A stretch of DNA of 54,718 bases from Candidatus Latescibacterota bacterium (lineage in GTDB: Bacteria; Latescibacterota; UBA2968; GCA-2709665): positions 1 to 54,718 of the forward strand of contig CAXXJS010000007.1 in the NCBI GenBank assembly GCA_963662665.2, given 5' to 3'. Numbering within the stretch: position 1 is the stretch's first letter; the number at the start of each line of letters is the position of its first letter. Made by a program: the position numbers and the translations under genes. The notes under the pieces are model-generated. The model was not told the origin of the DNA and made no database searches. It saw only the letters and a list, made by a program, of their open reading frames with translations. Shown here piece after piece: positions 17,724 to 38,015 of the stretch.

Positions 17724-18614
17724 ATGCGAATCAACACAACGAGTCTGACGAAAATCTATCAAAAGGGGGCCGCGCCTGCACTGGACAACGTGGACCTGGA
17801 AATCGGACAGGGTACATTCGGGCTGCTGGGACCGAATGGTGCCGGGAAAACCACGCTTATAAAGATACTTTCAACCCAGATGGCGCCAACGGCCGGCGAG
17901 GTCAGAATTGGCGCATGGGATCTGCGGCGAAACCGTTCCGAAGTGCGTCGAAGGCTGGGATATCTTCCTCAGCATTTCGGAGCGTATCCGCAACTGACGG
18001 CGTGGGAGTTTCTGGATTATATGGACCGGCTGGCCGCCGGGCACCGTCGGAACGGCAGAAGGGCGCGGGTACGGGATGCGTTGGAAAACGTGGGGCTATA
18101 CGATGCGCGTGACCGTCGGACCGGCACGTTTTCCGGGGGAATGATGCGCCGACTCGGCGTTGCACAGGCCATTGTGGGCGATCCTGAAATTCTGATTGTG
18201 GACGAGCCCACGGTGGGTCTCGATCCGGAAGAACGCATTCGTTTTCGGGGGATTCTCGCCCGGTTGAGCCGGGATCGGGCCATATTGATTTCAACCCACA
18301 TTGTTGGTGACATTTCGAGTACCTGCGATGATCTGGCCGTGCTGAATGCCGGGCGGATCGTTTACAGGGGATCGCCGGCAACTCTGGTCGCCCGCGCCGA
18401 TGGCAAGACCTGGCGCGTGCAGGCGGACGACGCCGGCTTCGAGAAAATCTCCAGACGTTTTCTGGTCGTGACGGTCGCCGTGGACGGCGGACGGATGGAT
18501 CTTCGGATCGTGGGCGATGGCCAACCGCCCGGCAACGCGGAGCCGGTTTCGCCGAACCTCGAAGATGCGTATGTTTATTTTATCGGTATGGAGAACCAGG
18601 AAAGGGCGGCGTGA
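17724..18614 (+). CDS. ABC transporter ATP-binding protein (ABC-2/DrrA-like)
   Basis: GPNGAGKTT, FSGGM, ILIVDEPT, STH, C-terminal PNLEDAY. Confidence 0.95.
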   Translation: MRINTTSLTKIYQKGAAPALDNVDLEIGQGTFGLLGPNGAGKTTLIKILSTQMAPTAGEVRIGAWDLRRNRSEVRRRLGYLPQHFGAYPQLTAWEFLDYMDRLAAGHRRNGRRARVRDALENVGLYDARDRRTGTFSGGMMRRLGVAQAIVGDPEILIVDEPTVGLDPEERIRFRGILARLSRDRAILISTHIVGDISSTCDDLAVLNAGRIVYRGSPATLVARADGKTWRVQADDAGFEKISRRFLVVTVAVDGGRMDLRIVGDGQPPGNAEPVSPNLEDAYVYFIGMENQERAA

Positions 18615-18620
18615 GTCGCA

Positions 18621-21600
18621 GTGAACATGAATACGGTCTTCACCATATTTTCGGTTGCCAGATACGAACGCAAGTTGCTGATGCGGACGATCAGATTTCG
18701 CATTCTGGGCGGTATCGGCGTACTCATCCCGGTTGTCCTGGGCGTGGGACTGGCGATTGCGGAAGCAAGAGGCGTTGAATTCGAATCCGTTAGTGGAATC
18801 GGCGCCTACATGCCCTTTTTTGTCTACAGTTTTCTGCAGACCGTCGTGATCGCGTTCATTGTCGGGGATTTCCGCGCCGCGGATGAACGCGCGGGGATCT
18901 ACGAGGTGGTTGCAGCCCGACCGCTGTCTACGGCCGAACTGGTCATGGGTAAATACCTGGGTGTTCTGGGCGCACTGATCACGCTCAGCGTGGTTGTGCT
19001 CGTGCTCAGCCTTGGTGTGCAAGCAGCCAAAATCAGCGTAACAGGCGCGCCGTTTACCGTGCGGCCCTATCTGGCGTACTTGCTGCTGTTGAACCTGCCG
19101 GGGCTCGTTTACATGTCAGCCCTTACGTTTTTTCTTGGGGCGGTGTTGCGTCGGCAGGCCGCAGTGACCGTGCTCGTTATCGCCTACGTCGTGATTGTGC
19201 TCTTGTTCCTGGGACGCAGATATGGCGGCATTTACGATTTCGGTGCATTTTTCGCACCCGTGTTCTATTCGGATATGCTGGGTCTTGGCGATATCCGACG
19301 TGTGGTGGAGATCCGGTTCTTCTACATGACGCTTGCTCTGTTTTTCTTCGGTCTGTCCATCGACCGGTACCCGCGTCTGCCGCAATCTAGATCCTGGCGC
19401 CGGTTTGGCCGATGTCTGACCGCCGCCGGCCTCGTCTCCACGCTGGCTCTGTACCTTTATATGGAAGGCCGGGATGCCTCCGACCTCGAATACAGGACGG
19501 CGCAGTTGGCATCACAGGAGAGATATGCCGGTTGGCCTACCGCCGCGGTAACCCACTACACCCTCGACGTGGATCTGGCAACAGGCCGGTCGCCCCTGGG
19601 GTGCACAGCGGTACTGAACGTCTTGAACCCACATCCCGTGCCCCTGGATACGCTGGTTTTCAGTCTCAACCCGGGATTGGAATTGCGGTCTGTGAGCGCA
19701 AGGCCGGCAGGGGACGTTGCTGTCGACTGGCGCCGCGATTACGGCACCGTGCGGGTCGCGCTCCCACTCCAGCCCGATAGTCTGGCGACGCTGGAGTTCG
19801 TGTACGACGGTTCGATTGACCTCAGCGGATTCGATCTCAGACGGCATCCCGATTCAAGGCGCTTGCAGAAGCGTCGCGCCGGCCCCGGAAGAAAGGGTGA
19901 TCTTACGGCCTGGATTCGACACAATTCCGTTTTCCTCCCGCCGCGCAGCAGGTGGTACCCCTCACCGGGAGTGGACTACGGGCATCGGGATGACAGACCC
20001 CGTTCCTTCGCCACTGCGGATCTCAACATTTCTCTTCCCGGCGGGCTGGAAGTAGTGACCCAGGGCGTGCCGGTTAACCGGAAGCCACAGGGAAGACGTG
20101 AGATTCACACATGGAAAGTGGAGCAGCCTGTACCCGTTTTCTCACTCAACGCCGGCGTCTATCGTGTCTTTCAGGCCGAAATTCACGACGTCGAGTGTGC
20201 TATATACGTACATCCGGCCCATGCAAAACAGATCACTTTTTTCGAAGACGCCACGGACGACGCCCTCGATACACTGGGCGAAATCCTGGATAGCGTTGAA
20301 CAGGAAACCAGCCTGGCCTATCCATACAAGCGTCTATCGGTGGTTGAAGTGCCATTCCAGGTGCAATGGTATTACGACGGATGGGAGGAAGCCGGAGGAT
20401 TGGTGCAGCCCGGCGTGATGATGCTGGAAGAGGATGTCCTGATGCGATTGAGGCTGGGACAGCGGCTGAAGTGGATGCAGCGGAGGCAACGGCGAAACGA
20501 CGATCCAGCGAGAATCAAGCGAGATTTGCTGGTCAGGACGATCCTTAACACGTTTCTTGCGGGCGAATCGTCTCAGAGCGGGATATACCGGAGTCCTGTT
20601 GCGCAACTCTGGTCGTTCAACAAGGGATTCGAAGGCGAACACTATTCGCTGTTAAAGCGTGCAATGCCGGTCTACATGCAGAAGCATCTCGGTACCAATC
20701 TGCAGCAGAATTTCTACTCTCGGCGGGGGCGGTTTCGGGGGCGGTTCAGGCGCAACAGGGGCGGGAGTGGCGTCTCCTGGGATACGTTGACGGCCAAGAT
20801 GGCGCAGCGGTCCTTCGCGCAACTGGACCCGAATGCAGACGCGGAACTCTACCGGGCCGTCGTCGATGCCAAGGGCGCCTCCATGTTCGGCATGATGCAG
20901 GCTGTGGTGGGAGACGACGTATTCAGAGACGTTGTCAGCGGATTCGAGGAGGCGAGTCGACACGTCGGGGTGGACTTCGCTTCGTTTGAGAGGGCGGCGG
21001 TCGGCGATTCCTCGGGAGCGGGGAACGGCCCCGACCTGAATCGCCTGGTCCGAGACTGGCTGCACGGCACCCAGGTGCCGGGATACACGCTGACACGGGC
21101 GAAAGCATATAAAGTGGACGACGGGTGGGGGATGCTGACGTATCAGGTCATTGTGAGGATCCGGAACGGTGAACCCGGGCGAGGGTTTGTTCAAATTCGA
21201 GCGATGGGCGCCGAGGACGAGGCGGTAAAGGGCGTGGAGATAGAGGGGGGGCAGGAAGTCGAGGTTGGGTTGATCCTATGGGAACGACCCTCAAGAATAA
21301 GTGTCGAGCCCTTTTTTGCACGTAACCGCCGGGTCCTGATGGCGCCGTTGCGCATTCCGGAGAAGCCGATGGATGGATCCGCCACGACGTACGTGAGGGA
21401 GGTCTCCCCGGATGAGACGGGATTGACCGAAATCATCGTGGACAACGATGACGACGGCTTCGAGATGCCGGTCCGCAGGGTGCGGCGCTATCTGCGACCG
21501 CAGTTGAAGGGGGACAACTGGCAGGAACGCCAGATGCCGTTTTCCTTCGGACGGTATGAGAACAATTTCCGGTGGAAGAAGCCTGGCGACGGCGCGCAGC

Positions 21601-22025
21601 CGGCCGTATGGACGGCCCGGTTGCCCCACAGCGGAGATTACGACGTCTACTATTATTTCATTTCTCCCAGGTTCTCGAAGCGTCTGCGTATGGCGTCGGA
21701 ATTCAATCTGGCCGTGGGCCACGGTGGCGAGGTGGATACGCTGGCAATCGACGCAGGCGAATTGAAGGCGGGTTGGAACGTCCTGGGGCGTTACCGGTAC
21801 GAGGGCGGGGAACTGGCCCGGGTCGAATTGTCCGACCGCGCAAGCGGGCGCCTCTACGCAGATGCGGTGCGCTGGAGATACGTAGACCCCGACCATCCGG
21901 AGGAGGTGTATGAAGAGGACCTCCCGACGTGGAATTTCGGCCGTGGCGGTCGTGGAGGCAACCGCGGCGGTCGCGGAGGGAGCAACCGAAGCGGCCGCGG
22001 TCAATGGCGTGGTGGAAACTGGTAA
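18621..22025 (+). CDS. ABC-2 permease fused to an M1-aminopeptidase-like domain lacking HEXXH, a C-terminal golvesin/xanthan-lyase-type beta-sandwich and an RGG tail
   Basis: About 8 hydrophobic N-terminal helices with ARPLS..ELVMGKYLG; HYTLDV, SLNPGL, WYP, YPYKRLSVVEVP, KGASMF, DWLHG; IIVDNDDDGF...GWNVLG...ADAVRW. Confidence 0.78.
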   Translation: MNMNTVFTIFSVARYERKLLMRTIRFRILGGIGVLIPVVLGVGLAIAEARGVEFESVSGIGAYMPFFVYSFLQTVVIAFIVGDFRAADERAGIYEVVAARPLSTAELVMGKYLGVLGALITLSVVVLVLSLGVQAAKISVTGAPFTVRPYLAYLLLLNLPGLVYMSALTFFLGAVLRRQAAVTVLVIAYVVIVLLFLGRRYGGIYDFGAFFAPVFYSDMLGLGDIRRVVEIRFFYMTLALFFFGLSIDRYPRLPQSRSWRRFGRCLTAAGLVSTLALYLYMEGRDASDLEYRTAQLASQERYAGWPTAAVTHYTLDVDLATGRSPLGCTAVLNVLNPHPVPLDTLVFSLNPGLELRSVSARPAGDVAVDWRRDYGTVRVALPLQPDSLATLEFVYDGSIDLSGFDLRRHPDSRRLQKRRAGPGRKGDLTAWIRHNSVFLPPRSRWYPSPGVDYGHRDDRPRSFATADLNISLPGGLEVVTQGVPVNRKPQGRREIHTWKVEQPVPVFSLNAGVYRVFQAEIHDVECAIYVHPAHAKQITFFEDATDDALDTLGEILDSVEQETSLAYPYKRLSVVEVPFQVQWYYDGWEEAGGLVQPGVMMLEEDVLMRLRLGQRLKWMQRRQRRNDDPARIKRDLLVRTILNTFLAGESSQSGIYRSPVAQLWSFNKGFEGEHYSLLKRAMPVYMQKHLGTNLQQNFYSRRGRFRGRFRRNRGGSGVSWDTLTAKMAQRSFAQLDPNADAELYRAVVDAKGASMFGMMQAVVGDDVFRDVVSGFEEASRHVGVDFASFERAAVGDSSGAGNGPDLNRLVRDWLHGTQVPGYTLTRAKAYKVDDGWGMLTYQVIVRIRNGEPGRGFVQIRAMGAEDEAVKGVEIEGGQEVEVGLILWERPSRISVEPFFARNRRVLMAPLRIPEKPMDGSATTYVREVSPDETGLTEIIVDNDDDGFEMPVRRVRRYLRPQLKGDNWQERQMPFSFGRYENNFRWKKPGDGAQPAVWTARLPHSGDYDVYYYFISPRFSKRLRMASEFNLAVGHGGEVDTLAIDAGELKAGWNVLGRYRYEGGELARVELSDRASGRLYADAVRWRYVDPDHPEEVYEEDLPTWNFGRGGRGGNRGGRGGSNRSGRGQWRGGNW

Positions 22026-22069
22026 TACATTGGGATACATGGGATTATAACTTTTATGTGAGGTGCGTT

Positions 22070-23152
22070 TTGAACAGGCGATTCCCGGACTCTTTTTTCA
22101 TTGTACTCGTAAGTATATCAACGCTGTCCGGCTGCGGCGGGCAAACTGAGCAGCGTTCCGTCGATCTGACCGTCCCCGTAACGGTTCAGGCCGTGCGAAT
22201 GGACACGATGGAAGCGACGGTGTCGGCCACGGGCACGCTCCGACCCACCAAGGAGGCCAGAATTCTAACCGAGGTCGAGGGAATTCTTCAATTTATCGCA
22301 CGGGGCGTCGGAGGACGGCCGACGGAGGGGATGCGGCTGAACCGAAACCAGGAGATCGCCCGTCTTGTAAACAAGGAGCTTGTTGTAAACGCCCGCCTGG
22401 AATCCCGTGAGCTTGCACTTGCCGCCGCGAAGCGAACCCTGCGCGATCAGGAGGTGCTCGTTGAACGCAAGCTGGGCACGGAAAAGGATCTGGAAGAAGC
22501 GCGCCACGCCTTCGCCGAGGCCGAATCAAACTATGAAAACGCTCTCGTTCAGATCGCCAAGACAACCATTCGCACACCAATCGCCGGCTTTCTGACCGGA
22601 TTGGCCGATATTACCGAAGGTACGCTTGTGGATGCCCGCACAACCATTGCAACGGTAATGGATTACAGCCGGGTGCTGGTCGATCTCAAGATACCCAATG
22701 CCTATATTGCGTCGGTATCACCGGGGCAGGTTGTACGGGTGGAGAACTATGCGTTGCCCAACCGACGGTTTCTGGGGACCATCAAGGTGGTGGATCCGGC
22801 CATTGATCCAACAACACGCACGTTCCGGGTGGTGGGAGCGGTGGAGAATTCGGGCCTGATGTTACGGCCAGGCATGTTCGTGACGGCGGAGATTGTAACG
22901 GAGTCGCATGAAGACGCGGTGGTGATTCCACGCCGGTTTGTTCTGACCCGACAGAATCGCAAGGTGGTTTTTGTGGAAGAGGAGGGAAGGGCGCAGATGC
23001 GCCATGTGGAATTGGGGCTGGAGGGAACGGAGCAGGTCGAGATTCTGGATGGGCTTGAGGCGGGCGAGCGTCTCATTACCAGCAACTACGAGACCCTGCG
23101 GGCCCGTACGCGCGTGAGGGTAACCGGCGAGGGAGTGCCGGGGCAGCGATAA
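22070..23152 (+). CDS. RND efflux periplasmic adaptor (MFP), probable lipoprotein
   Basis: TTG after GAGGTG; LSGC lipobox; ATGTL, IRTPIAG, IDPTTRTF, LRPGMF, GLEAGE. Confidence 0.92.
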   Translation: MNRRFPDSFFIVLVSISTLSGCGGQTEQRSVDLTVPVTVQAVRMDTMEATVSATGTLRPTKEARILTEVEGILQFIARGVGGRPTEGMRLNRNQEIARLVNKELVVNARLESRELALAAAKRTLRDQEVLVERKLGTEKDLEEARHAFAEAESNYENALVQIAKTTIRTPIAGFLTGLADITEGTLVDARTTIATVMDYSRVLVDLKIPNAYIASVSPGQVVRVENYALPNRRFLGTIKVVDPAIDPTTRTFRVVGAVENSGLMLRPGMFVTAEIVTESHEDAVVIPRRFVLTRQNRKVVFVEEEGRAQMRHVELGLEGTEQVEILDGLEAGERLITSNYETLRARTRVRVTGEGVPGQR

Positions 23153-23184
23153 ACACCGGTGTTCTTTCCCTGAATCGGATAACC

Positions 23185-23428
23185 GGATGTTGACAGTTTT
23201 CCGCGACGGGACACAGGTTGCGGATATCCGCCGATTCGAGGACCCGAAGCGAATTCGAGAGATCCCGTCCGCGGCGAAATTGCATTCAGCAGAAACCTTG
23301 TGAGTTTTCGTTTGGACCCTTCTTGGGCCCGGGGAATGCATGTGGGGCTTTCGGAGGGTTATTTTTAGCCCGAATCCTCGCGGCCCACATTCCCGCGGAC
23401 GTCCGGGGGTAGGACAGTTGTCAATACC
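23185..23428. mobile_element. MITE-like structured insertion between the MFP and RND genes
   Basis: Imperfect terminal inverted repeats GGATGTTGACAGTTTTCC and (reverse complement) GGTATTGACAACTGTCC; internal hairpins (CCGCGACGGGA/TCCCGTCCGCGG, ATGTGGG/CCCACAT). Confidence 0.45.
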
Positions 23429-23448
23429 TCTTGTAAAGGGCTGATACG

Positions 23449-26400
23449 ATGTCATTGCCCGAATTCTCAACAAAATACCCGGTGACGATCGCGATGGCCA
23501 CACTGGCGGTGGCACTCCTGGGTTGGATCTCACTGGAACGGCTGGACGTGGACCTTCTGCCCGATGTGCGTTCCCCCGTGATCACAGTAGACCTGCGATT
23601 TCCGGGCAAGACGCCCAGGGAGATGGAAGAGCGTTACGCACAACGGCTCGAAGGGGATATTGGTACCGTGCGTCACGTCAAACGGGTACATTCAGTATCC
23701 CGTTCCGGGCAGGCCGTGGTGATAGCGGAATTTGAATGGGATGCGGATATGGATTTCGCCCTGCTCGACGTACAGAAGAAAGTGGCGCGATACGCGGCGG
23801 ATCCAGATATCGCGAGTCTGGACGTTACGCAGGAAGACCCCCAGGCGCTGCCGGTGATTCGACTGGCCGTATCCGGAGCTGATTGGCAGGATCCGGACGA
23901 ACTGTTGGGCAGTGTGGAAACCATAATCCGGCCTAAACTTGAAGGGTTTTCCGGCGTTGCTTCAGTGGAAATCGAAGGTGGGGCTGAAAAGGAGATCCAC
24001 GTTACGCTGGATTCCTATCTCCTGCAAGCCTTCGGCGTCAACTCCGAAACGGTCGTATCGCGGATTCGGGAAGCGAATTCGGATGTCTCCGGTGGAACGT
24101 TGAAGGACGGACAACGATCCTATCTGGTCAAGGGTCTGGGACGTCTGACAGATTTGAAGGACGTGAATAACCTGGTTGTGGGCGAGCGTCGAGGCGAAAC
24201 CGGGAACGGGCAGGAGGATGCCCCCGCCGAAAGGGTGCCCGTCATGGTCAGCGACGTGGGTGCCGTAGCTCTCCAATATAAGGAGAGAGAGACAATCGTG
24301 CGCCTCGATGGTGTGGAGTGCGTCGGTCTTTCAATTTACAAAGAGGCGGGGGCGAATACTTCCTCGGTGGTCAATCGGGTTCTCGAAGAACTGGGAAACC
24401 TGGAGGCCGACCTGGCCGGCGTGCGCTTTACGGTGGTCGAGAACCAGGCGCGGTTTGTGGAACGCGCGGTAAACGAAGTGGAAGAGGCGGCCATTATCGG
24501 CGCACTGCTGGCCGTGGGTGTGCTGCTGGCGGCGCTCCGGCAGTGGACGGCAACACTGGTGATCGGTCTTGCCATTCCGATCTCCGTGCTGGCCACCTTC
24601 ACACTGATGTATTTTCAGGGGTTGACGTTGAACGTGATGACCCTGGGCGGGTTGGCGTTGGGCGCGGGCATGCTGGTCGACAACGCGATTGTCGTGATCG
24701 AAAACATCCACCGTCACCTGGAACGGGGAGAATCGGCCGTCGAAGCCTCCATTAAGGGTGCAAGCGAGGTGGGAGTCGCCATCCTGGCTTCCACACTTAC
24801 CACGGTGTCCGTGTTTCTGCCCATCGTCTACCTTCACGGTCTGGCCGGCGAACTGTTCAAGGAGCAGGCCTGGACGGTCGCGTTTTCGCTGATTTCGTCT
24901 CTCGCGGTGGCCATGACAACCGTCCCTATGTTAACCGCCCGGCTCTTTGGCCGGTATCGCCGCCGGTCCGCAAGCGTCGCCGGGTCGGTCGCGTTCAATC
25001 GCCTTCTTAGTGGATCGCTCAACCACAAGGGACGTACGTTGGCAGTGCTTTTCGCGTGTCTTCTGGCCGCCGTCTATATGGCCAGGTCCATCCACACGTC
25101 TTTTATTCCGGGTGAAGACGAGGGTGTACTTCACGTGGACGTCTCGTTGCCGGAGGGCACAAGGCTTGAGTCGACGGACAGGGTTTCGAGACGCATTGCC
25201 GCGATCACGCAGGCAGTTGCCGGAAAGGAAGCCCGGCACATCTACCTTCGCGTGGGAAACGATCCGAACCGGCTGACGGCAGTGGGAGAACCCTCCGGCC
25301 CCAACAGGGCGGAGCTGACGGTGGTGCTGGCGAAGCGAGAGGACCGGCGCAGTGTTTCCGAACTCACCGCCGCTCTGGACGCCGCCATTCGCGAGGTGCC
25401 GGAAATCAAAGTTAACTATCGACTTCAAAAGGCTGCACTGGAAGGGCTTATTCGAGGAGATTCTGCGCCGGTTCAAGTCGAGGTCAGCGGTGAGAACCTG
25501 GAATTACTCCGGGAGCTCACGGCAGACTTGAAACGGCGCATGGAAGCGTTATCAACGGTATATAACGTGCGAACCACCTTCCAGGACGGTCAGCCGGAAG
25601 TGGACGTGGTGTTGCGGCCGGACGTCACGGCGGCGTTTGGACTTACGTCACAGAACCTCGTGCGCGAACTGGAGCGCAGGCTGGCAGGCGAGGAAGCCGG
25701 AGAACTCTCCAAAGACCAGCGTGCGCGAACCATCCGGGTGGGTTTCGAGGACCTGGACATTCGTGAGTTGAAACACGCCAGAATTGACGGCCCGGACGGT
25801 GCGATGCTCACGCTGGGAGATCTCGCCGACCTGCGCGTGGTCCAGGGACCGCGGGAGATCCTGCGCGACGGTCAGCGCCGGGTGGGAAGGGTATCGGCAT
25901 ATCTGTCCGATGGCGTGGTGCTGGGCCAGGCTGCAACGCAGATCAGGCAGGCGGTGGGACAGATGGCCATTCCACACGGATACCGGGTGAACGTCACGGG
26001 TGAGGAACGCGAACGGGCCGAGTCATTTGGCGGCCTCCAATTCGCCCTCATTCTATCGGTAGTGCTCGTCTATATGGTAATGGCGTCGCTATTCGAGTCC
26101 CTGCTACATCCGTTTACGGTGATGTTTACGGTGCCGCTTGCCGGGATTGGGGTGGTATTCGCGTTCTGGAGCCTTGGAGAGGCGTTTGGCATTATGGCAT
26201 TTATAGGTGCGATCATGCTGGGCGGAATCGCCGTGAATGACGCCATCATTCTTGTGGATCGCATCAACCAGTTGCGGCGCGATACGGGCGACTTGAGACA
26301 GGCGGTACTTCGGGGGGCGCAGGATAGGCTGCGCCCGATCCTGATGACCAGCGGCACGACCATCCTGGCGTTGTTGCCCATGGCGGTGGGAGTGGGGGAG

Positions 26401-26532
26401 GGCGCCCGTTTAAGGGCGCCGATGGCTGTGGCGGTTATCGGCGGGTTGGTAACTTCCACACTGATGACTCTGGTGGTGATTCCCGTGGTTTACGAATTGA
26501 TTGAACGGCTTAGATTCCGGAGGGCGCCGTGA
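23449..26532 (+). CDS. RND permease (AcrB/MdtB-like)
   Basis: GMLVDNAIVVIENI, LASTLTT, YMVMASLFES, GIAVNDAIILVD, RLRPILMT. Confidence 0.95.
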   Translation: MSLPEFSTKYPVTIAMATLAVALLGWISLERLDVDLLPDVRSPVITVDLRFPGKTPREMEERYAQRLEGDIGTVRHVKRVHSVSRSGQAVVIAEFEWDADMDFALLDVQKKVARYAADPDIASLDVTQEDPQALPVIRLAVSGADWQDPDELLGSVETIIRPKLEGFSGVASVEIEGGAEKEIHVTLDSYLLQAFGVNSETVVSRIREANSDVSGGTLKDGQRSYLVKGLGRLTDLKDVNNLVVGERRGETGNGQEDAPAERVPVMVSDVGAVALQYKERETIVRLDGVECVGLSIYKEAGANTSSVVNRVLEELGNLEADLAGVRFTVVENQARFVERAVNEVEEAAIIGALLAVGVLLAALRQWTATLVIGLAIPISVLATFTLMYFQGLTLNVMTLGGLALGAGMLVDNAIVVIENIHRHLERGESAVEASIKGASEVGVAILASTLTTVSVFLPIVYLHGLAGELFKEQAWTVAFSLISSLAVAMTTVPMLTARLFGRYRRRSASVAGSVAFNRLLSGSLNHKGRTLAVLFACLLAAVYMARSIHTSFIPGEDEGVLHVDVSLPEGTRLESTDRVSRRIAAITQAVAGKEARHIYLRVGNDPNRLTAVGEPSGPNRAELTVVLAKREDRRSVSELTAALDAAIREVPEIKVNYRLQKAALEGLIRGDSAPVQVEVSGENLELLRELTADLKRRMEALSTVYNVRTTFQDGQPEVDVVLRPDVTAAFGLTSQNLVRELERRLAGEEAGELSKDQRARTIRVGFEDLDIRELKHARIDGPDGAMLTLGDLADLRVVQGPREILRDGQRRVGRVSAYLSDGVVLGQAATQIRQAVGQMAIPHGYRVNVTGEERERAESFGGLQFALILSVVLVYMVMASLFESLLHPFTVMFTVPLAGIGVVFAFWSLGEAFGIMAFIGAIMLGGIAVNDAIILVDRINQLRRDTGDLRQAVLRGAQDRLRPILMTSGTTILALLPMAVGVGEGARLRAPMAVAVIGGLVTSTLMTLVVIPVVYELIERLRFRRAP

Positions 26533-29500
26533 TTCTTCCCGATCTTGCCGTCAGGCGTCCGGTGACGACGTCCATGTTCTTCGCCGCGTTCGCCATATTG
26601 GGTGTCGTGTCGTGGACCCGGCTTCCGGTACAGCTTTTTCCGGAACTGATTTTCCCGGAAGTCTTCGTCACGCTCTCGCTGCAGGGGGCCTCCCCGGAAC
26701 AGGTTGAGAGGGATCTTGTGATTCCCGCCGAAGGGGCGATCGGCAAGCTGGACGGGATCCAGGAGATGGAGTCCTTCGCAATGGCCAACAGGGGTGGTAT
26801 CAGAGTAGCCTACGCTCCGGACGTGGATATGAAGTTCGCCCTGCTTCAGCTGCAAAGCAACCTGAATAGATTGCAGCCAACGCTGCCTGAACGTACGCAA
26901 ACCGATGTACGAAGATTCGACTCGACAGACCTGAGCAGCAGCATCATGGAACTCCACGTGCTTGCCGATTGGGATCTGAACCAGTTACGGGAGTTCACGG
27001 AGGAAAAGATCCGCCCCGAATTGGAGTCTGTCGACGGCGTTGTGAACGTATTGGTAATGGGTGGTCGGCGCAGCGCCGTGGAAATCGTCCTGGATCCGGT
27101 TCTGCTGGAAGCGCACGGCCTTTCAACCGGAGCGGTACGGGCGCGCCTGAACAACTACAATCGGCGACGGGAGTACCTCGGTCGCGTATACGACGGGAAT
27201 CGTGCCTGCTCCGTGAGCATTCATGGACAGTTTACGGACCTCCTGCAGATTCGGAATCTGGTGTTGAATGCGGACGGCACCCTCCGGCTGGGCGACGTTT
27301 CCCGTGTGGGATACGGACTTCAGGAGCAGGCCGACCGCCACCGGGTCAACGGGAAACCTTCGGTGGGGGTCCGGATCCAGAAAGACGACGAGGCGAACCT
27401 GATTGAGGTGGCAGCCGCGGTAGAAGCGGCCATTGCGCAGTTGAATCGCACGTTCAAGAGCGACGGCGTGGAACTGGGCGTGAGCTCATCTCAGGCGGAT
27501 CTGATGACCGGGGCGCTTTCCACGCTGAAACAGGCGGCCATAATTGGTGCCGTCCTCGGCCTGGTCGTACTCTTTCTGTTTCTTCGGAACCTTCGTTTCG
27601 TCTCGGTCCTCCTGCTCGCCATTCCGGTTTCTCTCTTGATGACCTTCAATCTTATGTACCTGGGTGGTCTGTCGGTCAACGTGCTTTCACTTTGCGGCCT
27701 GGCCCTCGCGATGGGAATGCTCGCCGACAACGGCATCGTGGTGATGGAGAGCATCTTCAAGCACTATGAGCGTGGAAAATCGCCCGCGCGGGCGGCGCGC
27801 GACGGGGCAGCCGAGGTCGGTCGTGCGGTGGTCGCGGCAACAGCAACCACGGTAACCGCTTTCCTGCCAGTGCTATTTATCGAAAGCGACGCGCAGGATC
27901 TGCTGCGGGAGCTCGCGCTGTCCATGGCGTTTCCATTAATGGCCTCTCTGCTGGTAGCGCTGACGCTTGTTCCGGCCCTTGCCGTCCGGGCACTTAATCG
28001 CGATGTCCGAAAACCGCCGGACGTCCGGGGCTTACTGGAACAGTATACACTGCTGTTGAAAACTGCATTGCGGCACCGGGCGTCTGTCGCTCTGTCCGTT
28101 GGGGGGGTCCTGGCGTTGACACTCGTCGTGGCCTTCTTCTTTCTGCTCCAGCAACAGGTGCGGAGGGAGGAGACGCGATTTACGGTTTACGTGAACCTGC
28201 CGGAAGGGGCCACGCTCGATGCCACCGACGAGGTCGCGAAACAGGTGGAAGAAACTGTGCGGGACGTGCCCGGTCTGGATCGGTTTACAACGTCGGTGCA
28301 GGAGGCCGAGGCCAGCGTCACCGTCCTGCTGAGAAAGCGTTCTGACCGGCCCGGCGACATCTCGCTTGACGAAATAAAGGAACAGCTCGACGAGAAATTG
28401 CAGAACGTGCAGGGAGGGGTGGTAGGATACGAACCCAGACCCCGTGCGGGACGAGGCGGTCGCGGGCAGGGGATAGGACAGCGTCGGAGGCGTAGTTCCG
28501 GTGGATTCGATCTGACCGGGGCCACGCCGAACGAGCAGGCCGTGGTGAGAGGCTACGATTTTACCATTCTGACGATGGTTGCCAACGACGCGGTGTACCG
28601 CCTCGAGGAACTCGAGGAGGTGGATGCCAACAGCGTGCGCGCCGACGCCGAACGGAGTTCGCCCGAGGTGCAGGTGATTCCCGATGCGGCTTCCCTGTTC
28701 GACCGGCGGCTTGGGGCACAGGAGGTCCTGGCCGCCGTGGGAGACACGCGATGGGACGGATTCCGCACCACCGTACCGTTTCTGCTGCCTGACGCAACCG
28801 AGGTACCCATTGAAGTGCGGACGATCGAAGAAGAGGACCGTGAACGTTACGGACTGGCTGAATTGAAACGGTCCCGTATTCTCAACCAGGACGGTCAGTA
28901 CGTGTCTCTGGACGAAGTCGCGCGGGTTCGAACGGACGAGGGCAGGAGCAGTCTCTTGAGGACGGACCAGGCCCGGCGGATTGTGGTTTCCTACCGGTTT
29001 CCTTCGGAAATTCTGGATTCACAACCGCGGTTGGATACTGCGAGACGGGTCGTTCGGACGACACTGCAGGACATGGTGCTGCCTGAGGGCTATTCAATTG
29101 AAATCATCGAGGCGCACGAGGAGACGATTTACTATTGGATGATTGGAATTGCCGCGGTACTCATCTATATGATTCTGGCCTCGTTGTTTGAATCTTTCGC
29201 CTCTCCGATAATCATCCTATGCACGCTGCCGCCCGCCGCCATCGGCTCGTGTTGGGCGCTGATGATGTCGGGCACGGGCCTGAGCCAGCAGGAAGGGCCC
29301 ATGGCGCTGCTGGGCTTTGTCGTCTTGTTGGGCATTGCCGTAAATAACGGGATTATCCTGATAGACGCCGTCGGCGTACTCCGGTCCCGTTTCGGCTTTC
29401 GCCGGGAACGCGCAGTCCTGACGGCGGCGAGGTCCCGTGTTCGGCCCATATTAATGACGACGGCTACAACGCTTCTGGGCGTTCTTCCGCTCGCGCTGGA

Positions 29501-31241
29501 ATTCGGTGGGGATTTCGAAATCTGGCCGCCGTTCGCAATAACTGTTCTGGGTGGGTTGTCTGTTTCCATGGTGTCCACTTTGATCCTGATTCCGGTCGTG
29601 TACATGGGACTGGACCAGATCGGCGATTGGCTGGCCGACCTGGGCTTTATCGGCCTCGTGTTCTCGCTGCTTTCTACCGCAGCGGCCGGCTATGGCGTAT
29701 ATATCCGATATGAAAGCGTTTTCTGGGCCGCGTTGTCGATATTTCCCATATGGGCCGCGTTCCTGACGGCGGTGTGGATCGTACTGAAAATCCATCGCGC
29801 CCGGGTCGCCTCGCGCCGCGCCGCGAGCGCCGTCCATTCGATTCAACTTAGAAACCTGACTAAAATTTACGGCGCGCCCGGGCGTTTTGGCAGGGAGTGG
29901 GCGCGCTATGAACGTCGGAAGGGGCGGTTGGGAACAACGGAACCTGATTCGCAGGACCTCAAACGGATTCGCGATGCGCTCTTGTGGAAGCTGCCGTTGC
30001 TCGCACTGTTGTTGTATTTCGCGACGTATTTCGAGGACGAAATCTGGATTTATCTGCACGGGTTGGCGCTGGTATTCATGCTTGGCCACGTGGGTTGCTG
30101 TATCGGCGCGCTCTTGCGGGAACATCTGTTGCCGGCGGTAGAACGTATTGGTGATATTCTGTATAGAGTCGCTTTGCCGGTGGGATTCGTGGCTTACATG
30201 CATTTGCGGCTGAATCTGCTTTCCGTTACCATTGCCACGTTAGGCTTGTGGGCCGCCTACCGACTTGTACGATGGCTTTCCGGCAGGGTGCGGGCGGGCG
30301 TGGTCACTCCCGATGAGCTAACCGGACGATTCGTGCGGGCCCGTAGATGGCTCTATTGGACGGCATCGGCCATACCCATCGTTGGCGTTCCCCGGCCTGA
30401 ATTTCGGGCGCTGGCGGGCGTCAACCTCGAAATCGGCAGGGGAATGTTCGGTCTTTTGGGCCCGAACGGCGCGGGAAAGACCACGTTGATGCGCATTCTG
30501 TGCCGGGTCCTCGAGCCCAGTTACGGGTCGATTCTTATCGACGGTCGAAACATCCTTCGAAACGGCTCAATTCATGGCCTGGTCGGATATCTTCCTCAGC
30601 ACTTTGGCAACTACCCACATCTTTCGGCGTACGAGTTTCTGGAATACCGGGCGCTGCTCGAAGGCTTCAAGGACCGCAAGACCCGCGAGTCAAGGGTTAT
30701 CGAATCCCTGGAAAAGGTGAATCTCATCGAACGCATGGACGATCCCATCGGGTCGTTCTCAGGGGGAATGAAGCAGCGTCTCGGGATCGCGCAGACCCTG
30801 TTGCACACCCCGCTGATCGTGGTTGTTGACGAGCCCACGGCAGGGCTCGATCCGCTGGAACGTATCCGGTTTCGTAACTTGCTCGCCCGGTTGAGCCAGG
30901 ACAGGATCGTCATCTTCTCCACGCACATCGTGGAAGATATCTCCGGAAGCTGCAATCGACTGGCGGTACTTGATCAGGGGCGTCTTCTGTATACCGGAAC
31001 GCCGGGGGAGATGAGAAATCAGGCGGAAGGACGGGTATGGGATGCGGTGGTTTCGGAACAGCGCTTTACCGAGTTGGAAGAAAAACTGAAGGTCGTATCG
31101 CACCAGCGGACGCCGGACGGGGTCAGAATGCGATTCCTGTCTGAACGCCGGCCGATAGGGTTTGGCGCACGGAGTACGGAACCAACCCTGGAAGACGCGT
31201 ACCTGTACCTCCTTGGCGGAGGAAAGGAAGAGCCATGCTGA
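26529..31241 (+). CDS. RND permease fused to extra transmembrane helices and a C-terminal ABC ATPase (1570 aa)
   Basis: Complete RND (GMLADNGIVV, GIAVNNGIILID, RVRPILMT) continues in one frame to GPNGAGKTT, FSGGM, VVDEPT, STH; GTGA overlap with the upstream stop. Confidence 0.92.
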   Translation: MILPDLAVRRPVTTSMFFAAFAILGVVSWTRLPVQLFPELIFPEVFVTLSLQGASPEQVERDLVIPAEGAIGKLDGIQEMESFAMANRGGIRVAYAPDVDMKFALLQLQSNLNRLQPTLPERTQTDVRRFDSTDLSSSIMELHVLADWDLNQLREFTEEKIRPELESVDGVVNVLVMGGRRSAVEIVLDPVLLEAHGLSTGAVRARLNNYNRRREYLGRVYDGNRACSVSIHGQFTDLLQIRNLVLNADGTLRLGDVSRVGYGLQEQADRHRVNGKPSVGVRIQKDDEANLIEVAAAVEAAIAQLNRTFKSDGVELGVSSSQADLMTGALSTLKQAAIIGAVLGLVVLFLFLRNLRFVSVLLLAIPVSLLMTFNLMYLGGLSVNVLSLCGLALAMGMLADNGIVVMESIFKHYERGKSPARAARDGAAEVGRAVVAATATTVTAFLPVLFIESDAQDLLRELALSMAFPLMASLLVALTLVPALAVRALNRDVRKPPDVRGLLEQYTLLLKTALRHRASVALSVGGVLALTLVVAFFFLLQQQVRREETRFTVYVNLPEGATLDATDEVAKQVEETVRDVPGLDRFTTSVQEAEASVTVLLRKRSDRPGDISLDEIKEQLDEKLQNVQGGVVGYEPRPRAGRGGRGQGIGQRRRRSSGGFDLTGATPNEQAVVRGYDFTILTMVANDAVYRLEELEEVDANSVRADAERSSPEVQVIPDAASLFDRRLGAQEVLAAVGDTRWDGFRTTVPFLLPDATEVPIEVRTIEEEDRERYGLAELKRSRILNQDGQYVSLDEVARVRTDEGRSSLLRTDQARRIVVSYRFPSEILDSQPRLDTARRVVRTTLQDMVLPEGYSIEIIEAHEETIYYWMIGIAAVLIYMILASLFESFASPIIILCTLPPAAIGSCWALMMSGTGLSQQEGPMALLGFVVLLGIAVNNGIILIDAVGVLRSRFGFRRERAVLTAARSRVRPILMTTATTLLGVLPLALEFGGDFEIWPPFAITVLGGLSVSMVSTLILIPVVYMGLDQIGDWLADLGFIGLVFSLLSTAAAGYGVYIRYESVFWAALSIFPIWAAFLTAVWIVLKIHRARVASRRAASAVHSIQLRNLTKIYGAPGRFGREWARYERRKGRLGTTEPDSQDLKRIRDALLWKLPLLALLLYFATYFEDEIWIYLHGLALVFMLGHVGCCIGALLREHLLPAVERIGDILYRVALPVGFVAYMHLRLNLLSVTIATLGLWAAYRLVRWLSGRVRAGVVTPDELTGRFVRARRWLYWTASAIPIVGVPRPEFRALAGVNLEIGRGMFGLLGPNGAGKTTLMRILCRVLEPSYGSILIDGRNILRNGSIHGLVGYLPQHFGNYPHLSAYEFLEYRALLEGFKDRKTRESRVIESLEKVNLIERMDDPIGSFSGGMKQRLGIAQTLLHTPLIVVVDEPTAGLDPLERIRFRNLLARLSQDRIVIFSTHIVEDISGSCNRLAVLDQGRLLYTGTPGEMRNQAEGRVWDAVVSEQRFTELEEKLKVVSHQRTPDGVRMRFLSERRPIGFGARSTEPTLEDAYLYLLGGGKEEPC

Positions 31242-31957
31242 ACTGGCGGGAACTGCTGCTTACCACGTGGCGGCTCTTTCGGCTGAGCTGCAGGATCATA
31301 TTTCACAGGAAATTGATGTTCATGGCCATTGGCGTCCTCGTCTATTACGGAGCCATGTATGCATTTGCAGTCTGGCGCCCAAACGAAGGATTCGGCGTAT
31401 CGCGCGCCCTCAATGTTCTGGTTGAAATTCCCGGTATCGCACTGGCTGTTTATCTGACGATGGATCTGGTTGCGGGCGAACGAGACAGAAATACACTGGA
31501 GACGTTATTCAGTACAACCTCATCCCACTATAAGATATGGGCGATCCGGATGGTGGGGGTCTATGTGGTGTTGGCGGGAACCCTGATGGGAATGACGATT
31601 GTGGCCTATTTTGTTTTCGCGGAATTGCCGGTTTTCCGGGGCGCGTTGAACGCCTTTCTGCCCGCGTGTTTTGCCGCTGGGCTGACATTCTACTTTTCCG
31701 TTCTCTGCCGAAGCGGAAATGCGGCAGCGATGCTCGCTACGGGAGTAATGGGCCTGACGCTGGTCGTGTCGGAATCCATGCCCGATTCACCCTTCGTGCT
31801 CTTTCTGAGTACGTTCGACCCCCCGGTGGGCATGGAAGACACCCTGTGGGGCGACCAGGTGCTGCTCAATCGCGTGGCTGTACTGATGTTATCGGGCCTG
31901 CTGCTTTTTATGGGACTTCGCAAGATGGAAGCCCGGGAGCGATTGGTTTCTTCGTAG
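31235..31957 (+). CDS. ABC-2 type permease
   Basis: Six hydrophobic segments with GERDRNTLETLF loop motif; overlaps the upstream stop, AGGAAG RBS. Confidence 0.85.
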   Translation: MLNWRELLLTTWRLFRLSCRIIFHRKLMFMAIGVLVYYGAMYAFAVWRPNEGFGVSRALNVLVEIPGIALAVYLTMDLVAGERDRNTLETLFSTTSSHYKIWAIRMVGVYVVLAGTLMGMTIVAYFVFAELPVFRGALNAFLPACFAAGLTFYFSVLCRSGNAAAMLATGVMGLTLVVSESMPDSPFVLFLSTFDPPVGMEDTLWGDQVLLNRVAVLMLSGLLLFMGLRKMEARERLVSS

Positions 31958-32145
31958 CGGCGCCTGCGTGAGATCCCATGCAGGATGAACACTTTGCGTA
32001 ACGCATGGCTCCGAATTCCGCGTGTGGCCGGCGTCGCGGCATTGTCACTCAGAAGTCATGGGTTTCGTCCACGGTGCGCTCCGCACCAGGTTGGTCGCCT
32101 CGTCAAACCGAGATTGCGGGATTCCGGCCAGCATCCCCGCCTGGA

Positions 32146-37833: not shown

Positions 37834-38015
37834 TTGTGTCAAACGTGAAGCCGGAGCGCCAATAGCCATTCGAGCCGGAAACGTCGTGTGTTGCGTTTGG
37901 TGATTAGGGTGTAGGAAATTGGGAGTGTGGCTGGCTCTTGCCGGACTTTGTGAAATTTCGGAAAATGACGTGGTCAGGTGATATTCTTTTCAATATTGCG
38001 ACGTTGACCCAACAA

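What the first reader, a model, noticed from the sequence alone, without database searches (positions are those of the whole stretch)
17724..31957. Hybrid ABC + RND transport machine encoded by one six-gene operon
Seen: ABC ATPase, giant ABC permease fusion, MFP lipoprotein, RND, RND::ABC-ATPase fusion and a small ABC permease, co-oriented with mostly overlapping or very short junctions. The parts add up to one complete heterodimeric ABC-2 transporter (2 NBDs, 2 TMDs) plus a two-subunit RND system, and the fusion covalently ties the two together. Established: RND pumps are driven by proton motive force and ABC transporters by ATP, normally as separate machines. Inference: an ABC module may hand substrate to, or energise, a heteromeric RND. 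I know of no characterised example, but homologues may exist as uncharacterised clusters. This is the best candidate for an undescribed system in the window.
Basis: partly seen in the sequence, partly recalled or inferred. Interest (0 to 1): 0.88.

Follow-up and report, generated by a model that had tools for sequence, protein, structure and literature searches.

The report
RND efflux pump fused to ABC transporter
Six neighbouring genes in an uncultured bacterium encode a proton-type (RND) efflux pump with a complete ATP-driven (ABC) exporter built into it, one protein carrying both kinds of motor, an arrangement that recurs in many uncultured bacteria and has not been studied.

Summary
17724-31957 holds six co-oriented genes:
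- g1, an ABC ATPase
- g2, a 1134-aa ABC-2 permease with a large periplasmic domain
- g3, a membrane-fusion lipoprotein
- g4, an RND permease
- g5, 1570 aa: a full RND permease, six extra membrane helices, then an ABC ATPase
- g6, a small ABC-2 permease

The fusion is real. Contigs from four public runs cover it without indels. About half of the phylum's species genomes (82 of 168) carry it with open frames.

The gene order is kept down to 25% identity. g2 and the fusion co-occur in 78 genomes, and the 8 discordant genomes are all fragmented.

New details:
- The ATPase's first strand is separated from its core by a four-helix membrane insertion.
- g2's periplasmic domain has an M1-aminopeptidase fold without the zinc motif.
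- g6 is modelled on the fused ATPase at the canonical interface.
- Distant relatives carry a seventh gene, an outer-membrane channel, which this lineage lacks.

Best reading: a heterodimeric type V ABC exporter tethered to a heteromeric RND pump, passing substrate from the inner membrane outward. This mechanism is inferred and the substrate is unknown. Six literature searches found no description. This scan had already flagged the same fusion in at least eight other genomes.

The parts
17724..18614 (+). g1: free ABC ATPase (NBD1), DrrA/GldA-like, 296 aa
   Evidence: ABC_tran E 4e-31. Best NCBIfam match is DrrA TIGR01188, 196 bits, below the 312 cut-off. Walker A, Q-loop, signature, Walker B-E and H-loop are canonical in the window and in 16 of 16 orthologues. 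About 47% identical to the fused NBD of g5.
18621..22025 (+). g2: ABC-2 (type V) permease with a seventh helix and an ~830-aa periplasmic domain (dead M1-aminopeptidase fold plus beta-sandwiches, Golvesin_C-like at residues 966-1084), ending in an Arg/Gly-rich tail
   Evidence: Pfam. AF2 model, pLDDT 76.7, with an N-terminal helix, 6+1 membrane helices and an ectodomain. Foldseek matches IRAP/ERAP1/APN at E 6e-18 to 1e-15 over ~650 columns. HEXXH in 0 of 17 orthologues.
22058..23152 (+). g3: periplasmic adaptor (membrane-fusion protein), probable lipoprotein. Start taken as GTG 22058 (TTG 22070 is also possible); the longest ORF starts at 21929.
   Evidence: TIGR01730 RND_mfp 186.6 bits (cut-off 94.9), HlyD_D23, HlyD_3. 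The signal-like stretch ending LSGC was read by eye; the start codons are. The lipobox motif is recalled, not tested.
23153..23448 (.). 296-nt untranslated gap between g3 and g4, specific to this lineage
   Evidence: The gap is 3-60 nt in L046 and L047. No Rfam match. No promoter-like or terminator-like site falls inside it.
23449..26532 (+). g4: RND permease 1 (1027 aa)
   Evidence: ACR_tran E 4e-224. TM4 VDN, TM10 VND and TM11 R.RP are fixed in 20 of 20 loci.
26529..29615 (+). g5, RND part (residues 1-1029): RND permease 2
   Evidence: ACR_tran 5-1027, E 1e-180. The alignment to MdtB, MexB and AcrB shows AcrB D407 and R971 kept, D408 to N and K940 to N. DN / VNN / R.RP are fixed in 20 of 20 loci.
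29619..29819 (+). g5, two-helix membrane hairpin after RND TM12 (residues 1031-1097)
   Evidence: AF2 model of residues 1030-1570, helices 2-32 and 35-68, pLDDT about 80.
29838..29870 (+). g5, first beta-strand of the ATPase (IQLRNLTKIYG), detached from the rest of the domain
   Evidence: Strand 75-85 in the model. K83 and Y85 are invariant in 29 sequences.
29883..30371 (+). g5, insertion within the ATPase between strands 1 and 2: one short helix, four long membrane helices, one short helix (residues 1119-1281)
   Evidence: Helices 90-107, 112-135, 142-166, 173-199, 202-226 and 240-252. A profile of linker plus insertion finds only 138 representatives among 1.84 billion.
30402..31241 (+). g5, ATPase core (NBD2) with a C-terminal regulatory-type domain, and the stop codon
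   Evidence: ABC_tran 1297-1438. Walker A, Q-loop Q328, signature SGGMxQR, Walker B DE and H437 are invariant in 29 sequences. Foldseek best matches are TM_1403 (4yer), NosF and ABCA NBDs.
31235..31957 (+). g6: small ABC-2 (type V) permease, 240 aa, the membrane partner of the fused ATPase
   Evidence: Weak ABC2_membrane hits. hhalign to the g2 membrane domain: probability 91.7%, E 7.7e-7. Complex model with g5 1030-1570: ipSAE 0.69 against best control 0.00. Found in 19 of 20 related loci.

Best explanation
The six genes build one envelope export machine made of two modules that are usually separate.

Module 1 is a heterodimeric type V (ABC-2) exporter. Its two active ATPases are g1 and the C-terminal domain of g5. 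Its two paralogous membrane domains are g2 and g6. g2 also carries a large periplasmic, catalytically dead M1-peptidase-fold domain.

Module 2 is a heteromeric RND pump (g4 + g5) with the adaptor g3. Its outer-membrane channel is encoded elsewhere in this lineage but inside the cluster in distant relatives.

Because one ATPase is part of the g5 polypeptide, held by six extra membrane helices, the ABC exporter is tethered to the RND trimer. The most likely layout is one g5 per trimer, as in MdtB2C (recalled).

Proposed mechanism, which is inferred:
1. The ABC module uses ATP to move an amphiphilic or lipid-linked substrate from the cytoplasm or inner leaflet to the periplasmic face.
2. The adjacent RND module captures it there.
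3. Driven by the ion gradient, the RND module expels it through the adaptor and an outer-membrane channel.

Shown here: the architecture, its conservation, intact catalytic motifs, and a modelled g5-ATPase/g6 interface. Inferred: complex formation with the RND trimer, the stoichiometry, the hand-over and the kind of substrate.
For: The fusion is real and conserved.
- All 120 best hits to g5 residues 1030-1570 carry both PF00873 and PF00005, and 109 of them are 1524-1646 aa long.
- The frames are open in the phylum's genomes. By my hand count, 82 of 168 have a best E of 1e-100 or lower.
- Contigs from 4 runs of 3 studies cover the fusion without indels.

The gene order g1-g2-(OMF)-g3-g4-g5-g6 is kept in 20 sampled loci at 25-73% identity.
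- g3, g4 and g5 are present in 20 of 20.
- g2 is present in 19 of 20.
- g6 is present in 19 of 20.
- g1 is adjacent in 16 of 20. Two of the other four are cut by contig ends.

Co-occurrence of the g2 ectodomain with the fusion: both in 78 genomes, one only in 4 + 4, neither in 82. All 8 discordant genomes are 58-90% complete and in 150-820 contigs.

Both ATPases keep all catalytic motifs. They are each other's closest paralogues: about 47% identity and E about 1e-75, against about 1e-40 for other ATPases.

g6 is homologous to the g2 membrane domain.

Complex model of g5 1030-1570 with g6:
- Score 0.69 against a best control of 0.00. That mark was reached by 58 of 80 solved complexes and 2 of 110 mismatched pairs.
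- The runs agree in at least 93% of contacts, and the partner's pLDDT is at least 75.
- The contacts are the Q-loop and helical subdomain of the ATPase with the N-terminal helix and the 85-101 coupling helix of g6. This is the known type V interface, so the pass may reflect likeness to solved complexes.

Both RNDs keep the TM4 Asp and TM11 Arg in 20 of 20 loci.

An OMF gene sits inside the cluster in 11 of 20 loci.

Precedent for an RND and a type V ABC exporter both being required for one export route: MmpL7 and DrrABC for PDIM (abstract of PMC11539658).
Against: - No experiment or expression data exist. No RNA run was listed.
- No tool here could model the whole assembly, so contact between the ABC module and the RND trimer rests only on the covalent link.
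- The six extra helices made no confident contact with g6 in the model, so their role is unknown.
- The substrate is unknown. No biosynthetic or regulatory gene is conserved beside the cluster.
- g2-like/g1-like pairs also occur away from any RND in some genomes, so the ABC part can presumably work alone.
- Two loci lack g1 beside g2.
- In this lineage no channel gene is linked. The best genomic match to the cluster-type channel is only 27% identical.
- A 296-nt gap splits the cluster between g3 and g4.
Confidence: 0.5

Rival explanations
1. The ABC module moves no substrate across the inner membrane. It acts as an ATP-driven regulator or mechanical driver. ATP binding and hydrolysis are transmitted through g2's large periplasmic domain, or through the g5 linker helices, to gate, assemble or prime the RND-adaptor-channel complex. 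This would resemble the mechanotransmission of MacB, LolCDE and FtsEX (recalled).
For: g2 carries an ~830-aa periplasmic domain with a dead enzyme fold, which suits a binding or scaffold role. The ATPase is wired into the membrane by a four-helix insertion at an unusual place. The fusion is essentially never found split.
Against: g2 and g6 have the 6-helix type V exporter layout, not the 4-helix type VII layout of MacB, LolC and FtsX. g1/g2-like pairs also occur without an RND, which points to a transporter in its own right. The RND ion-relay residues are conserved like those of unfused paralogues, so the RND needs no extra energy source.
Confidence: 0.2
2. These are two independent exporters that are only co-expressed and co-localised. 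The fusion is a convenient anchor or a stoichiometry device, with no direct hand-over between the ABC and RND parts. They may act on the same or on related substrates.
For: The predicted interface of the fused ATPase is an ordinary TMD-NBD interface with g6. Nothing in the models touches the RND part. ABC pairs of this type exist alone.
Against: The fusion, the insertion and the whole gene order are kept over large divergence (38-41% identity in the C-terminal part, 25% in g2). Co-occurrence with g2 is near-perfect. The linker-plus-insertion profile is found only on RND C-termini: in all 22 hits of 1550 aa or more the match lies within residues 1018-1306, starting at about 1018-1055 in 21 of them. 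Such conservation is hard to explain without functional coupling.
Confidence: 0.2
3. The fusion or the cluster is an artefact: a mis-assembly, a frameshifted pseudogene or a chimeric bin.
For: The genome is a MAG-like assembly of 66 contigs with 5.4% contamination.
Against: Independent contigs from 3 studies show no indel. Dozens of genomes, including single-contig ones, have open frames of about 1570 aa. All catalytic motifs are invariant.
Confidence: 0.01

Closest known systems
MdtABC-TolC / MuxABC-OpmB type tripartite RND pumps with two RND paralogues
   Same: Two tandem RND permease genes that stay distinct orthologue lines (g4 40-72%, g5 32-72% identity to their own orthologues, and 25-33% to each other). 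An adaptor gene lies upstream, and in distant relatives an outer-membrane channel gene too. MdtB is the best solved match for the g5 TM10-12 region.
   Different: One RND carries six extra helices and an ABC ATPase. Three further ABC genes are interleaved. AcrB D408 and K940 are replaced by Asn in both RNDs. No channel gene lies in this lineage's cluster. The MdtB2C stoichiometry is recalled from the literature and was not tested.
Type V (ABC-2) exporters with two different membrane subunits, e.g. DrrABC, which works with the RND MmpL7 in mycobacterial PDIM export
   Same: DrrA is the best NCBIfam match for both ATPases. There are two paralogous 6-helix membrane subunits. The ATPase has a C-terminal extra domain. 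An RND and a type V ABC exporter are both required for one export route (abstract of PMC11539658).
   Different: Scores lie below the DrrA family cut-off (196 and 170 bits against 312). Here there are two different ATPases, and one is covalently part of the RND. The RND is AcrB-like with an adaptor, not MmpL. The organism is diderm and uncultured, and the substrate is unknown.
M1 aminopeptidases (IRAP, ERAP1, aminopeptidase N)
   Same: The overall fold of g2 residues ~300-900 (Foldseek E 6e-18, about 650 aligned columns). Weak Peptidase_M1 sequence hits.
   Different: About 10% identity. The zinc-binding HEXXH motif is absent in 17 of 17 orthologues. The domain is fused to an ABC-2 permease and followed by beta-sandwich domains.
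Regulatory insertion of CFTR NBD1 (between strands 1 and 2), recalled from the literature
   Same: An insertion at the same place in the ABC ATPase fold, between the first and second strands.
   Different: Here the insertion is about 170 residues and forms four membrane-spanning helices rather than a short disordered cytosolic segment. The comparison is from memory and was not tested.
MacAB-TolC and YbhGFSR (ABC exporters with a membrane-fusion adaptor)
   Same: An ABC exporter encoded next to an HlyD-family adaptor. YbhFSR is an ABC-2 type system with two different permeases (abstract listing of PMC13739795).
   Different: Those systems contain no RND. MacB has a different (type VII) membrane fold. 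Here the adaptor matches the RND_mfp family.

Membership tests
RND permease, AcrB/HAE-1-like (Pfam ACR_tran) | Full-length match to ACR_tran above the curated cut-off | tested here: met
   g4: 746.9 bits. g5: 603 bits over residues 5-1027. Cut-off 28.
RND permease, AcrB/HAE-1-like (Pfam ACR_tran) | Canonical AcrB proton relay D407, D408, K940, R971 (residue numbers recalled) | tested here: not met
   D407 and R971 are kept; D408 is N and K940 is N in both g4 and g5. This is fixed in 20 of 20 loci. The same deviation occurs in unfused RND paralogues of the own genome on C22, C10, C50 and C52. It therefore marks the subfamily (NF033617-like), not the fusion.
Tripartite RND efflux system | Adaptor of the RND_mfp family encoded with the permease | tested here: met
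   g3: TIGR01730, 186.6 bits against a cut-off of 94.9.
Tripartite RND efflux system | Outer-membrane factor (OEP/TolC family) available | tested here: inconclusive
   None lies in the window's cluster. About 8 OEP loci lie elsewhere in the genome. A dedicated OEP gene lies inside the cluster in 11 of 20 related loci. The best own-genome match to it is 27% identical.
ABC ATPase (Pfam ABC_tran) | Walker A, Q-loop, signature, Walker B with catalytic Glu, and H-loop | tested here: met
   g1. g5 C-terminus: invariant in 29 sequences. The motif definitions are recalled.
Type V / ABC-2 exporter membrane domain | Match to an ABC2_membrane family above the curated cut-off | tested here: not met
   g2: 29.4 bits against 31.6. 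g6: 18 bits against 27.2.
Type V / ABC-2 exporter membrane domain | Six membrane helices with an N-terminal interface helix and a coupling helix that dock on the ATPase Q-loop groove | tested here: met
   By prediction only. The g2 model shows a helix plus 6 (+1) membrane helices. The confident contacts of g6 are residues 6-24 and 85-101 with g5C residues 319-354.
DrrA subfamily (TIGR01188) | Score above the NCBIfam cut-off of 312.45 bits | tested here: not met
   g1: 196.3 bits. g5: 169.6 bits.
GldAFG gliding-motility ABC transporter | Scores above the GldA (402.6) and GldF (288.5) cut-offs | tested here: not met
   g1: 174.2 bits. g2: 20.8 bits. GldG was not looked for.
M1 zinc aminopeptidase | M1 fold | tested here: met
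   Foldseek E 6e-18 to 1e-15 against IRAP, ERAP1/2, APN, PepN and tricorn factor F3.
M1 zinc aminopeptidase | HEXXH(18)E zinc site (motif recalled) | tested here: not met
   No HEXXH in 17 of 17 g2 orthologues. No conserved His or Glu in the aligned stretch.

The most novel reading that the evidence does not exclude
This is a dual-energy envelope pump. A single g5 subunit in a g4(2)g5 RND trimer nucleates one heterodimeric type V ABC exporter (g1, g2, g5C, g6). ATP-driven extraction of a substrate from the cytoplasm or inner leaflet is then coupled, physically and kinetically, to ion-gradient-driven expulsion across the outer membrane. g2's dead-peptidase periplasmic domain would serve as the hand-over chamber, and the four-helix insertion in the ATPase would transmit the state of one motor to the other. 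That would be a transport mechanism without a described precedent.
Probability: 0.3. Interest if true: 0.92.

Novelty: new variant of a known kind. Interest (0 to 1): 0.8.

Why it matters
RND pumps (ion-gradient driven) and ABC exporters (ATP driven) are taught as alternative inner-membrane engines of tripartite efflux. Cooperation between a cytoplasm-to-periplasm transporter and an RND pump is known only for separate proteins.

A conserved natural fusion is a 'Rosetta stone' indicating that the two engines work as one assembly in several uncultured phyla. It offers a fixed-stoichiometry complex in which substrate hand-over and energy coupling could be studied structurally.

It also brings three new elements:
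- an ABC ATPase split by membrane helices
- a pseudo-aminopeptidase used as a periplasmic transporter domain
- a self-contained cassette that is present or absent even within one genus, which suggests an accessory export function such as a lipid, glycolipid, peptide or toxin-tolerance role

Tried and rejected
**Dead proton relay, so the RND is ATP-driven.** Rejected. The D408N/K940N pattern also occurs in unfused RND paralogues of the same genome.

**Split forms of the fusion.**
- The linker/insertion profile found 138 representatives. The 22 of 1550 aa or more all have the match within residues 1018-1306.
- Of four short hits inspected, two start inside RND TM12 and one lacks its N-terminus, so all three are fragments. 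One (P0155, 526 aa) is ambiguous.
- A KSB1 record pair of 574 + 958 aa looks like a break inside the RND part, not at the domain border.
- I did not run the 'shorter' length search of the search for homologous proteins.

**Conserved flanking genes as a clue to the substrate.** None was found beyond family-level synteny in 10 genomes plus the window.

**RNA elements, promoters or terminators in the 296-nt gap and the cluster.** There were no Rfam matches at E up to 0.1. Consensus sites were no more frequent than in shuffles, and none lies in the gap.

**Expression.** No RNA holder was listed.

**Role of the six extra helices.** The complex model gave no confident contact between them and g6, so the question stays open.

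**Sequence search of g2 against solved structures.** It found only a weak hit of the C-terminal sandwich to xanthan lyase 6f2p, E 0.002.

**Cultured carriers.** All named members of 10 clusters are MAGs.

**Literature.** Six full-text searches found no paper on an RND-ABC fusion or on an ABC-2 permease/M1 fusion. I saw only listings and abstracts, plus 4 passages of PMC8277102 (first 300,000 characters held). Subscription journals, TCDB entries and supplements were not searchable.

**Earlier notes of this scan by place.** None for this genome.

Full report
**1. Is the observation right?**

The window is contig C7 of a 4.86-Mb, 66-contig genome, 92% complete with 5.4% contamination. Its closest relatives are MAGs titled Candidatus Latescibacterota, some labelled Gemmatimonadota.

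Between 17724 and 31957 there are six + strand ORFs.
- g1: ABC ATPase.
- g2: ABC-2 permease. Its N-terminal hit is just under Pfam's cut-off, and it has a Golvesin_C domain near the C-terminus.
- g3: RND-type membrane-fusion adaptor.
- g4: full RND permease.
- g5: full RND permease (residues 5-1027) plus ABC_tran (1297-1438) in one uninterrupted 1570-codon frame.
- g6: a 240-aa protein with weak ABC-2 membrane hits.

Four junctions are tight. The exception is a 296-nt gap between g3 and g4. That gap is 3-60 nt in two related loci, and it holds no Rfam match and no consensus promoter or terminator. g3 most likely starts at 22058 or 22070, just before a lipoprotein-like signal ending LSGC (the motif is recalled). 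The flanks are unrelated genes: a RidA-like gene upstream and cdaA on the other strand downstream.

**2. Is the fusion real?**

Logan contigs of four public runs from three studies each cover 26000-32000 in one piece with no gaps. Three are identical and may include the window's own source. The fourth is another strain with 50 substitutions and no indel.

A search with g5 residues 1030-1570 among proteins of 863-2748 aa returned 120 best hits. All of them carry both PF00873 and PF00005. 109 are 1524-1646 aa long, with 38-85% identity and mostly about 99% coverage. Their source labels are Latescibacterota, Gemmatimonadota, Acidobacteriota, KSB1 and Krumholzibacteria, plus Chlorobi- and Cytophagia-labelled MAGs and Handelsmanbacteria. 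All named members seen are MAGs with generic names.

In the 168 species genomes of the window's phylum, G000 included, I counted 82 with a full-type match at best E of 1e-100 or lower. The listed frames are open, at about 1570-1600 aa. By family:

| Family | With the fusion |
|---|---|
| f1 | 18 of 21 |
| f2 | 28 of 31 |
| f4 | 21 of 76 |
| f7 | 1 of 1 |
| f10 | 13 of 13 |
| Eight other families | 0 |

Presence is patchy even within genus g25, so the cassette is accessory.

**3. Is the neighbourhood conserved?**

I fetched 20 loci spanning 25-73% identity and mapped the six window proteins onto them.
- g3, g4 and fused g5 are present in order in 20 of 20.
- g2 is present in 19 of 20; one locus is cut by a contig end.
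- g6 is present in 19 of 20; it was not detected in L058.
- g1 lies next to g2 in 16 of 20. Two loci are cut by contig ends. Two (L063, L064) lack it there, and in those genomes a g1-like ATPase lies elsewhere.

Co-occurrence across the phylum, g2 ectodomain (E of 1e-10 or lower) against the fusion:

| Pattern | Genomes |
|---|---|
| Both | 78 |
| Fusion only | 4 (G044, G061, G127, G147) |
| g2 only | 4 (G067, G154, G156, G162) |
| Neither | 82 |

All eight discordant genomes are 58-90% complete and in 150-820 contigs. Related genomes are not independent, so I give counts and no statistic.

In 11 of the 20 loci (L051-L061, the more distant clade) an extra gene of about 505 aa lies between g2 and g3. 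It matches OEP/TolC at E 1e-42 to 1e-48 in the 3 of 3 copies tested with Pfam, and is 42-70% identical among the loci. The window's form is therefore a six-gene version of a seven-gene cassette.

In the own genome about eight OEP loci lie on other contigs. The best match to the cluster-type channel is only 27% identical. Beyond family-level synteny no flanking gene is conserved in 10 genomes plus the window.

**4. Anatomy of the fused protein**

An alignment of 29 C-terminal regions and an AF2 model (mean pLDDT 80.8) give this order after RND TM12:
- Two long helices forming a hairpin (g5 residues 1031-1097).
- A beta-strand, IQLRNLTKIYG, with K and Y invariant. It has the sequence pattern of the first strand of an ABC ATPase.
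- A short helix, then four long helices (residues 1141-1255), then another short helix.
- Only then the strand that leads into Walker A.

The ATPase is thus split between its first and second strands by a four-helix membrane insertion. An even number of added helices keeps it cytoplasmic, given that the RND C-terminus is cytoplasmic (established for AcrB, recalled).

Walker A, Q-loop, signature, Walker B with Glu, and the H-loop are invariant in all 29 sequences. The nearest solved folds are ABC-2/ABCA-type ATPases with a C-terminal extra domain: TM_1403 (4yer), NosF, ABCA and LptB.

A profile of linker plus insertion alone finds only 138 representatives at E of 1e-3 or lower among 1.84 billion. 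22 of them are 1550 aa or longer, and in all 22 the match lies within residues 1018-1306. Of four short hits inspected, three are fragments and one is ambiguous. I found no convincing split form.

**5. The ABC module**

g1 and the g5 ATPase are about 47% identical and are each other's closest paralogues. g1-type hits score E about 1e-75, whereas genomes without the cassette give only about 1e-40. g1 keeps all motifs in 16 of 16 orthologues.

g6 is homologous to the membrane domain of g2 (hhalign 91.7%, E 7.7e-7).

The complex prediction of g5 1030-1570 with g6 supports binding but does not show it.
- Score 0.69 against a best control of 0.00. That mark was reached by 58 of 80 solved complexes and 2 of 110 mismatched pairs. 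These counts hold only roughly, because my own alignments were used.
- The runs agree in at least 93% of contacts, and the partner's pLDDT is at least 75.
- The confident contacts are the Q-loop and helical subdomain of the ATPase with g6's N-terminal helix (6-24) and its 85-101 helix.
- This is the interface known from solved type V exporters, so the pass may reflect that likeness.
- The inserted helices are not among the confident contacts.

Gene order also pairs each ATPase with the permease that follows it: g1 with g2, and g5C with g6. Two paralogous ATPases and two paralogous membrane domains fit one heterodimeric exporter descended from a duplicated ATPase-permease pair.

**6. The giant permease**

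The AF2 model of g2 (17-sequence alignment, pLDDT 76.7) shows an N-terminal helix, six membrane helices and a seventh long helix. An ectodomain follows. Its first ~600 residues match M1 aminopeptidases: IRAP, ERAP1/2, APN, PepN and tricorn factor F3, at Foldseek E 6e-18 to 1e-15 over about 650 columns and about 10% identity. Beta-sandwich domains follow, the last being the Golvesin_C match.

None of 17 orthologues has an HEXXH motif, and the aligned stretch has no conserved His or Glu. The domain is a pseudo-peptidase, more likely a binding or scaffold module than an enzyme.

g2-like genes with their own g1-like ATPase also occur away from RND genes in some genomes: G083, G079, G091, G087 and family f10. 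The ABC pair is therefore a family of its own that was recruited into this cassette.

**7. The RND module**

g4 and g5 are distinct orthologue lines. Each is 32-72% identical to its own orthologues and 25-33% to the other, as in pumps with two RND paralogues.

Alignment to solved MdtB, MexB and AcrB chains shows the TM4 Asp (AcrB D407) and the TM11 Arg (R971) kept. D408 and K940 are Asn in both. g4 has an Asp at the next TM10 position (VND) where g5 has VNN. These signatures are fixed in 20 of 20 loci.

The control matters. Unfused RND paralogues on C22, C10, C50 and C52 of the same genome show the same VDN/VNN pattern. The deviation therefore marks the RND subfamily and gives no reason to think the ATPase replaces the ion gradient.

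**8. Mechanism**

- Shown: the architecture, its conservation, the intact motifs of both motors, a periplasmic adaptor, and a dedicated channel gene in the ancestral or alternative form.
- Inferred: g5 sits in an RND trimer with g4, most simply one g5 to two g4, which would give one fused ATPase per trimer to pair with g1. The MdtB2C precedent is recalled.
- Also inferred: the ABC exporter tethered beside the trimer delivers substrate to the periplasmic face, where RND pumps are known to collect it (established for AcrB-type pumps, recalled).
- A biological precedent for an RND and a type V ABC exporter both being required for one export route is MmpL7 with DrrABC in PDIM export (abstract of PMC11539658).

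I put 0.5 on this relay reading, 0.2 on an ATP-driven regulatory or mechanical role, 0.2 on mere co-localisation, and 0.01 on an artefact.

**9. Novelty**

Six full-text searches returned no paper describing an RND-ABC fusion or an ABC-2 permease joined to an M1 fold. For these I saw listings and abstracts. I also saw four passages of the tripartite-pump review PMC8277102, none of which mentions such a hybrid. Subscription journals, TCDB and supplements could not be searched.

Database names are generic. This scan had already noted the same fusion in at least eight other genomes. My results agree with those notes and add several points:
- The co-occurrence table.
- The relay control.
- The pseudo-peptidase assignment.
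- The modelled g5C-g6 interface.
- The homology between g6 and the g2 membrane domain.
- The finding that this lineage has lost the in-cluster channel gene.

Every component belongs to a known kind. Their covalent combination and the split ATPase are new variants. Whether the mechanism is new remains to be tested.

Noticed in passing
window 38001-42700: A low-GC stretch (0.46-0.51 against about 0.59). It holds a Mutator-family (IS256-like) transposase gene (39567-40838, E 6e-67), a DUF2971 gene, an HTH/MerR-like gene and an ORF with no family. It is probably a small mobile insertion between the FG-GAP/PQQ protein gene and gcvT.
   Followed up: partly
window 21940-22022 (g2 tail) and g5 residues ~640-665 (about 28440-28530); also L057:129-860 and the L057 g2 orthologue: Arg/Gly-rich low-complexity stretches (RGG-like) in predicted periplasmic parts. 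They occur in the C-terminal tail of g2, in an insertion in the porter domain of g5, in a poly-Gly/Arg insert in a distant g2 orthologue, and in the tail of a secreted-looking ORF upstream of that cluster. No explanation.
   Followed up: no
G083:C1:4436689-4440878, G079:C1:1462599-1464953, G091:C1:1005337-1007673, G087:C1:2090162-2092551, several contigs of G014/G019: Second copies of the g2-type permease/pseudo-M1 gene lie away from the RND cassette. In G083 one has a g1-like ATPase gene directly upstream. This ABC pair also exists as a stand-alone system.
   Followed up: partly
window 34282-37833: A 1183-aa protein with PQQ_2 and FG-GAP beta-propeller repeats, preceded by a TPR protein gene (33605-34285). 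This pair lies downstream of the cassette and is syntenic only within family f1.
   Followed up: no
window 9688-11943: A 751-aa protein with a DMFA2_C domain (N,N-dimethylformamidase beta-subunit-like, E 6.5e-70) plus a laminin-G/concanavalin-like domain.
   Followed up: no
window 16359-17606: A 415-aa ORF directly upstream of g1. Only a short RidA/L-PSP match (residues 170-227) explains part of it; the rest is unassigned.
   Followed up: no
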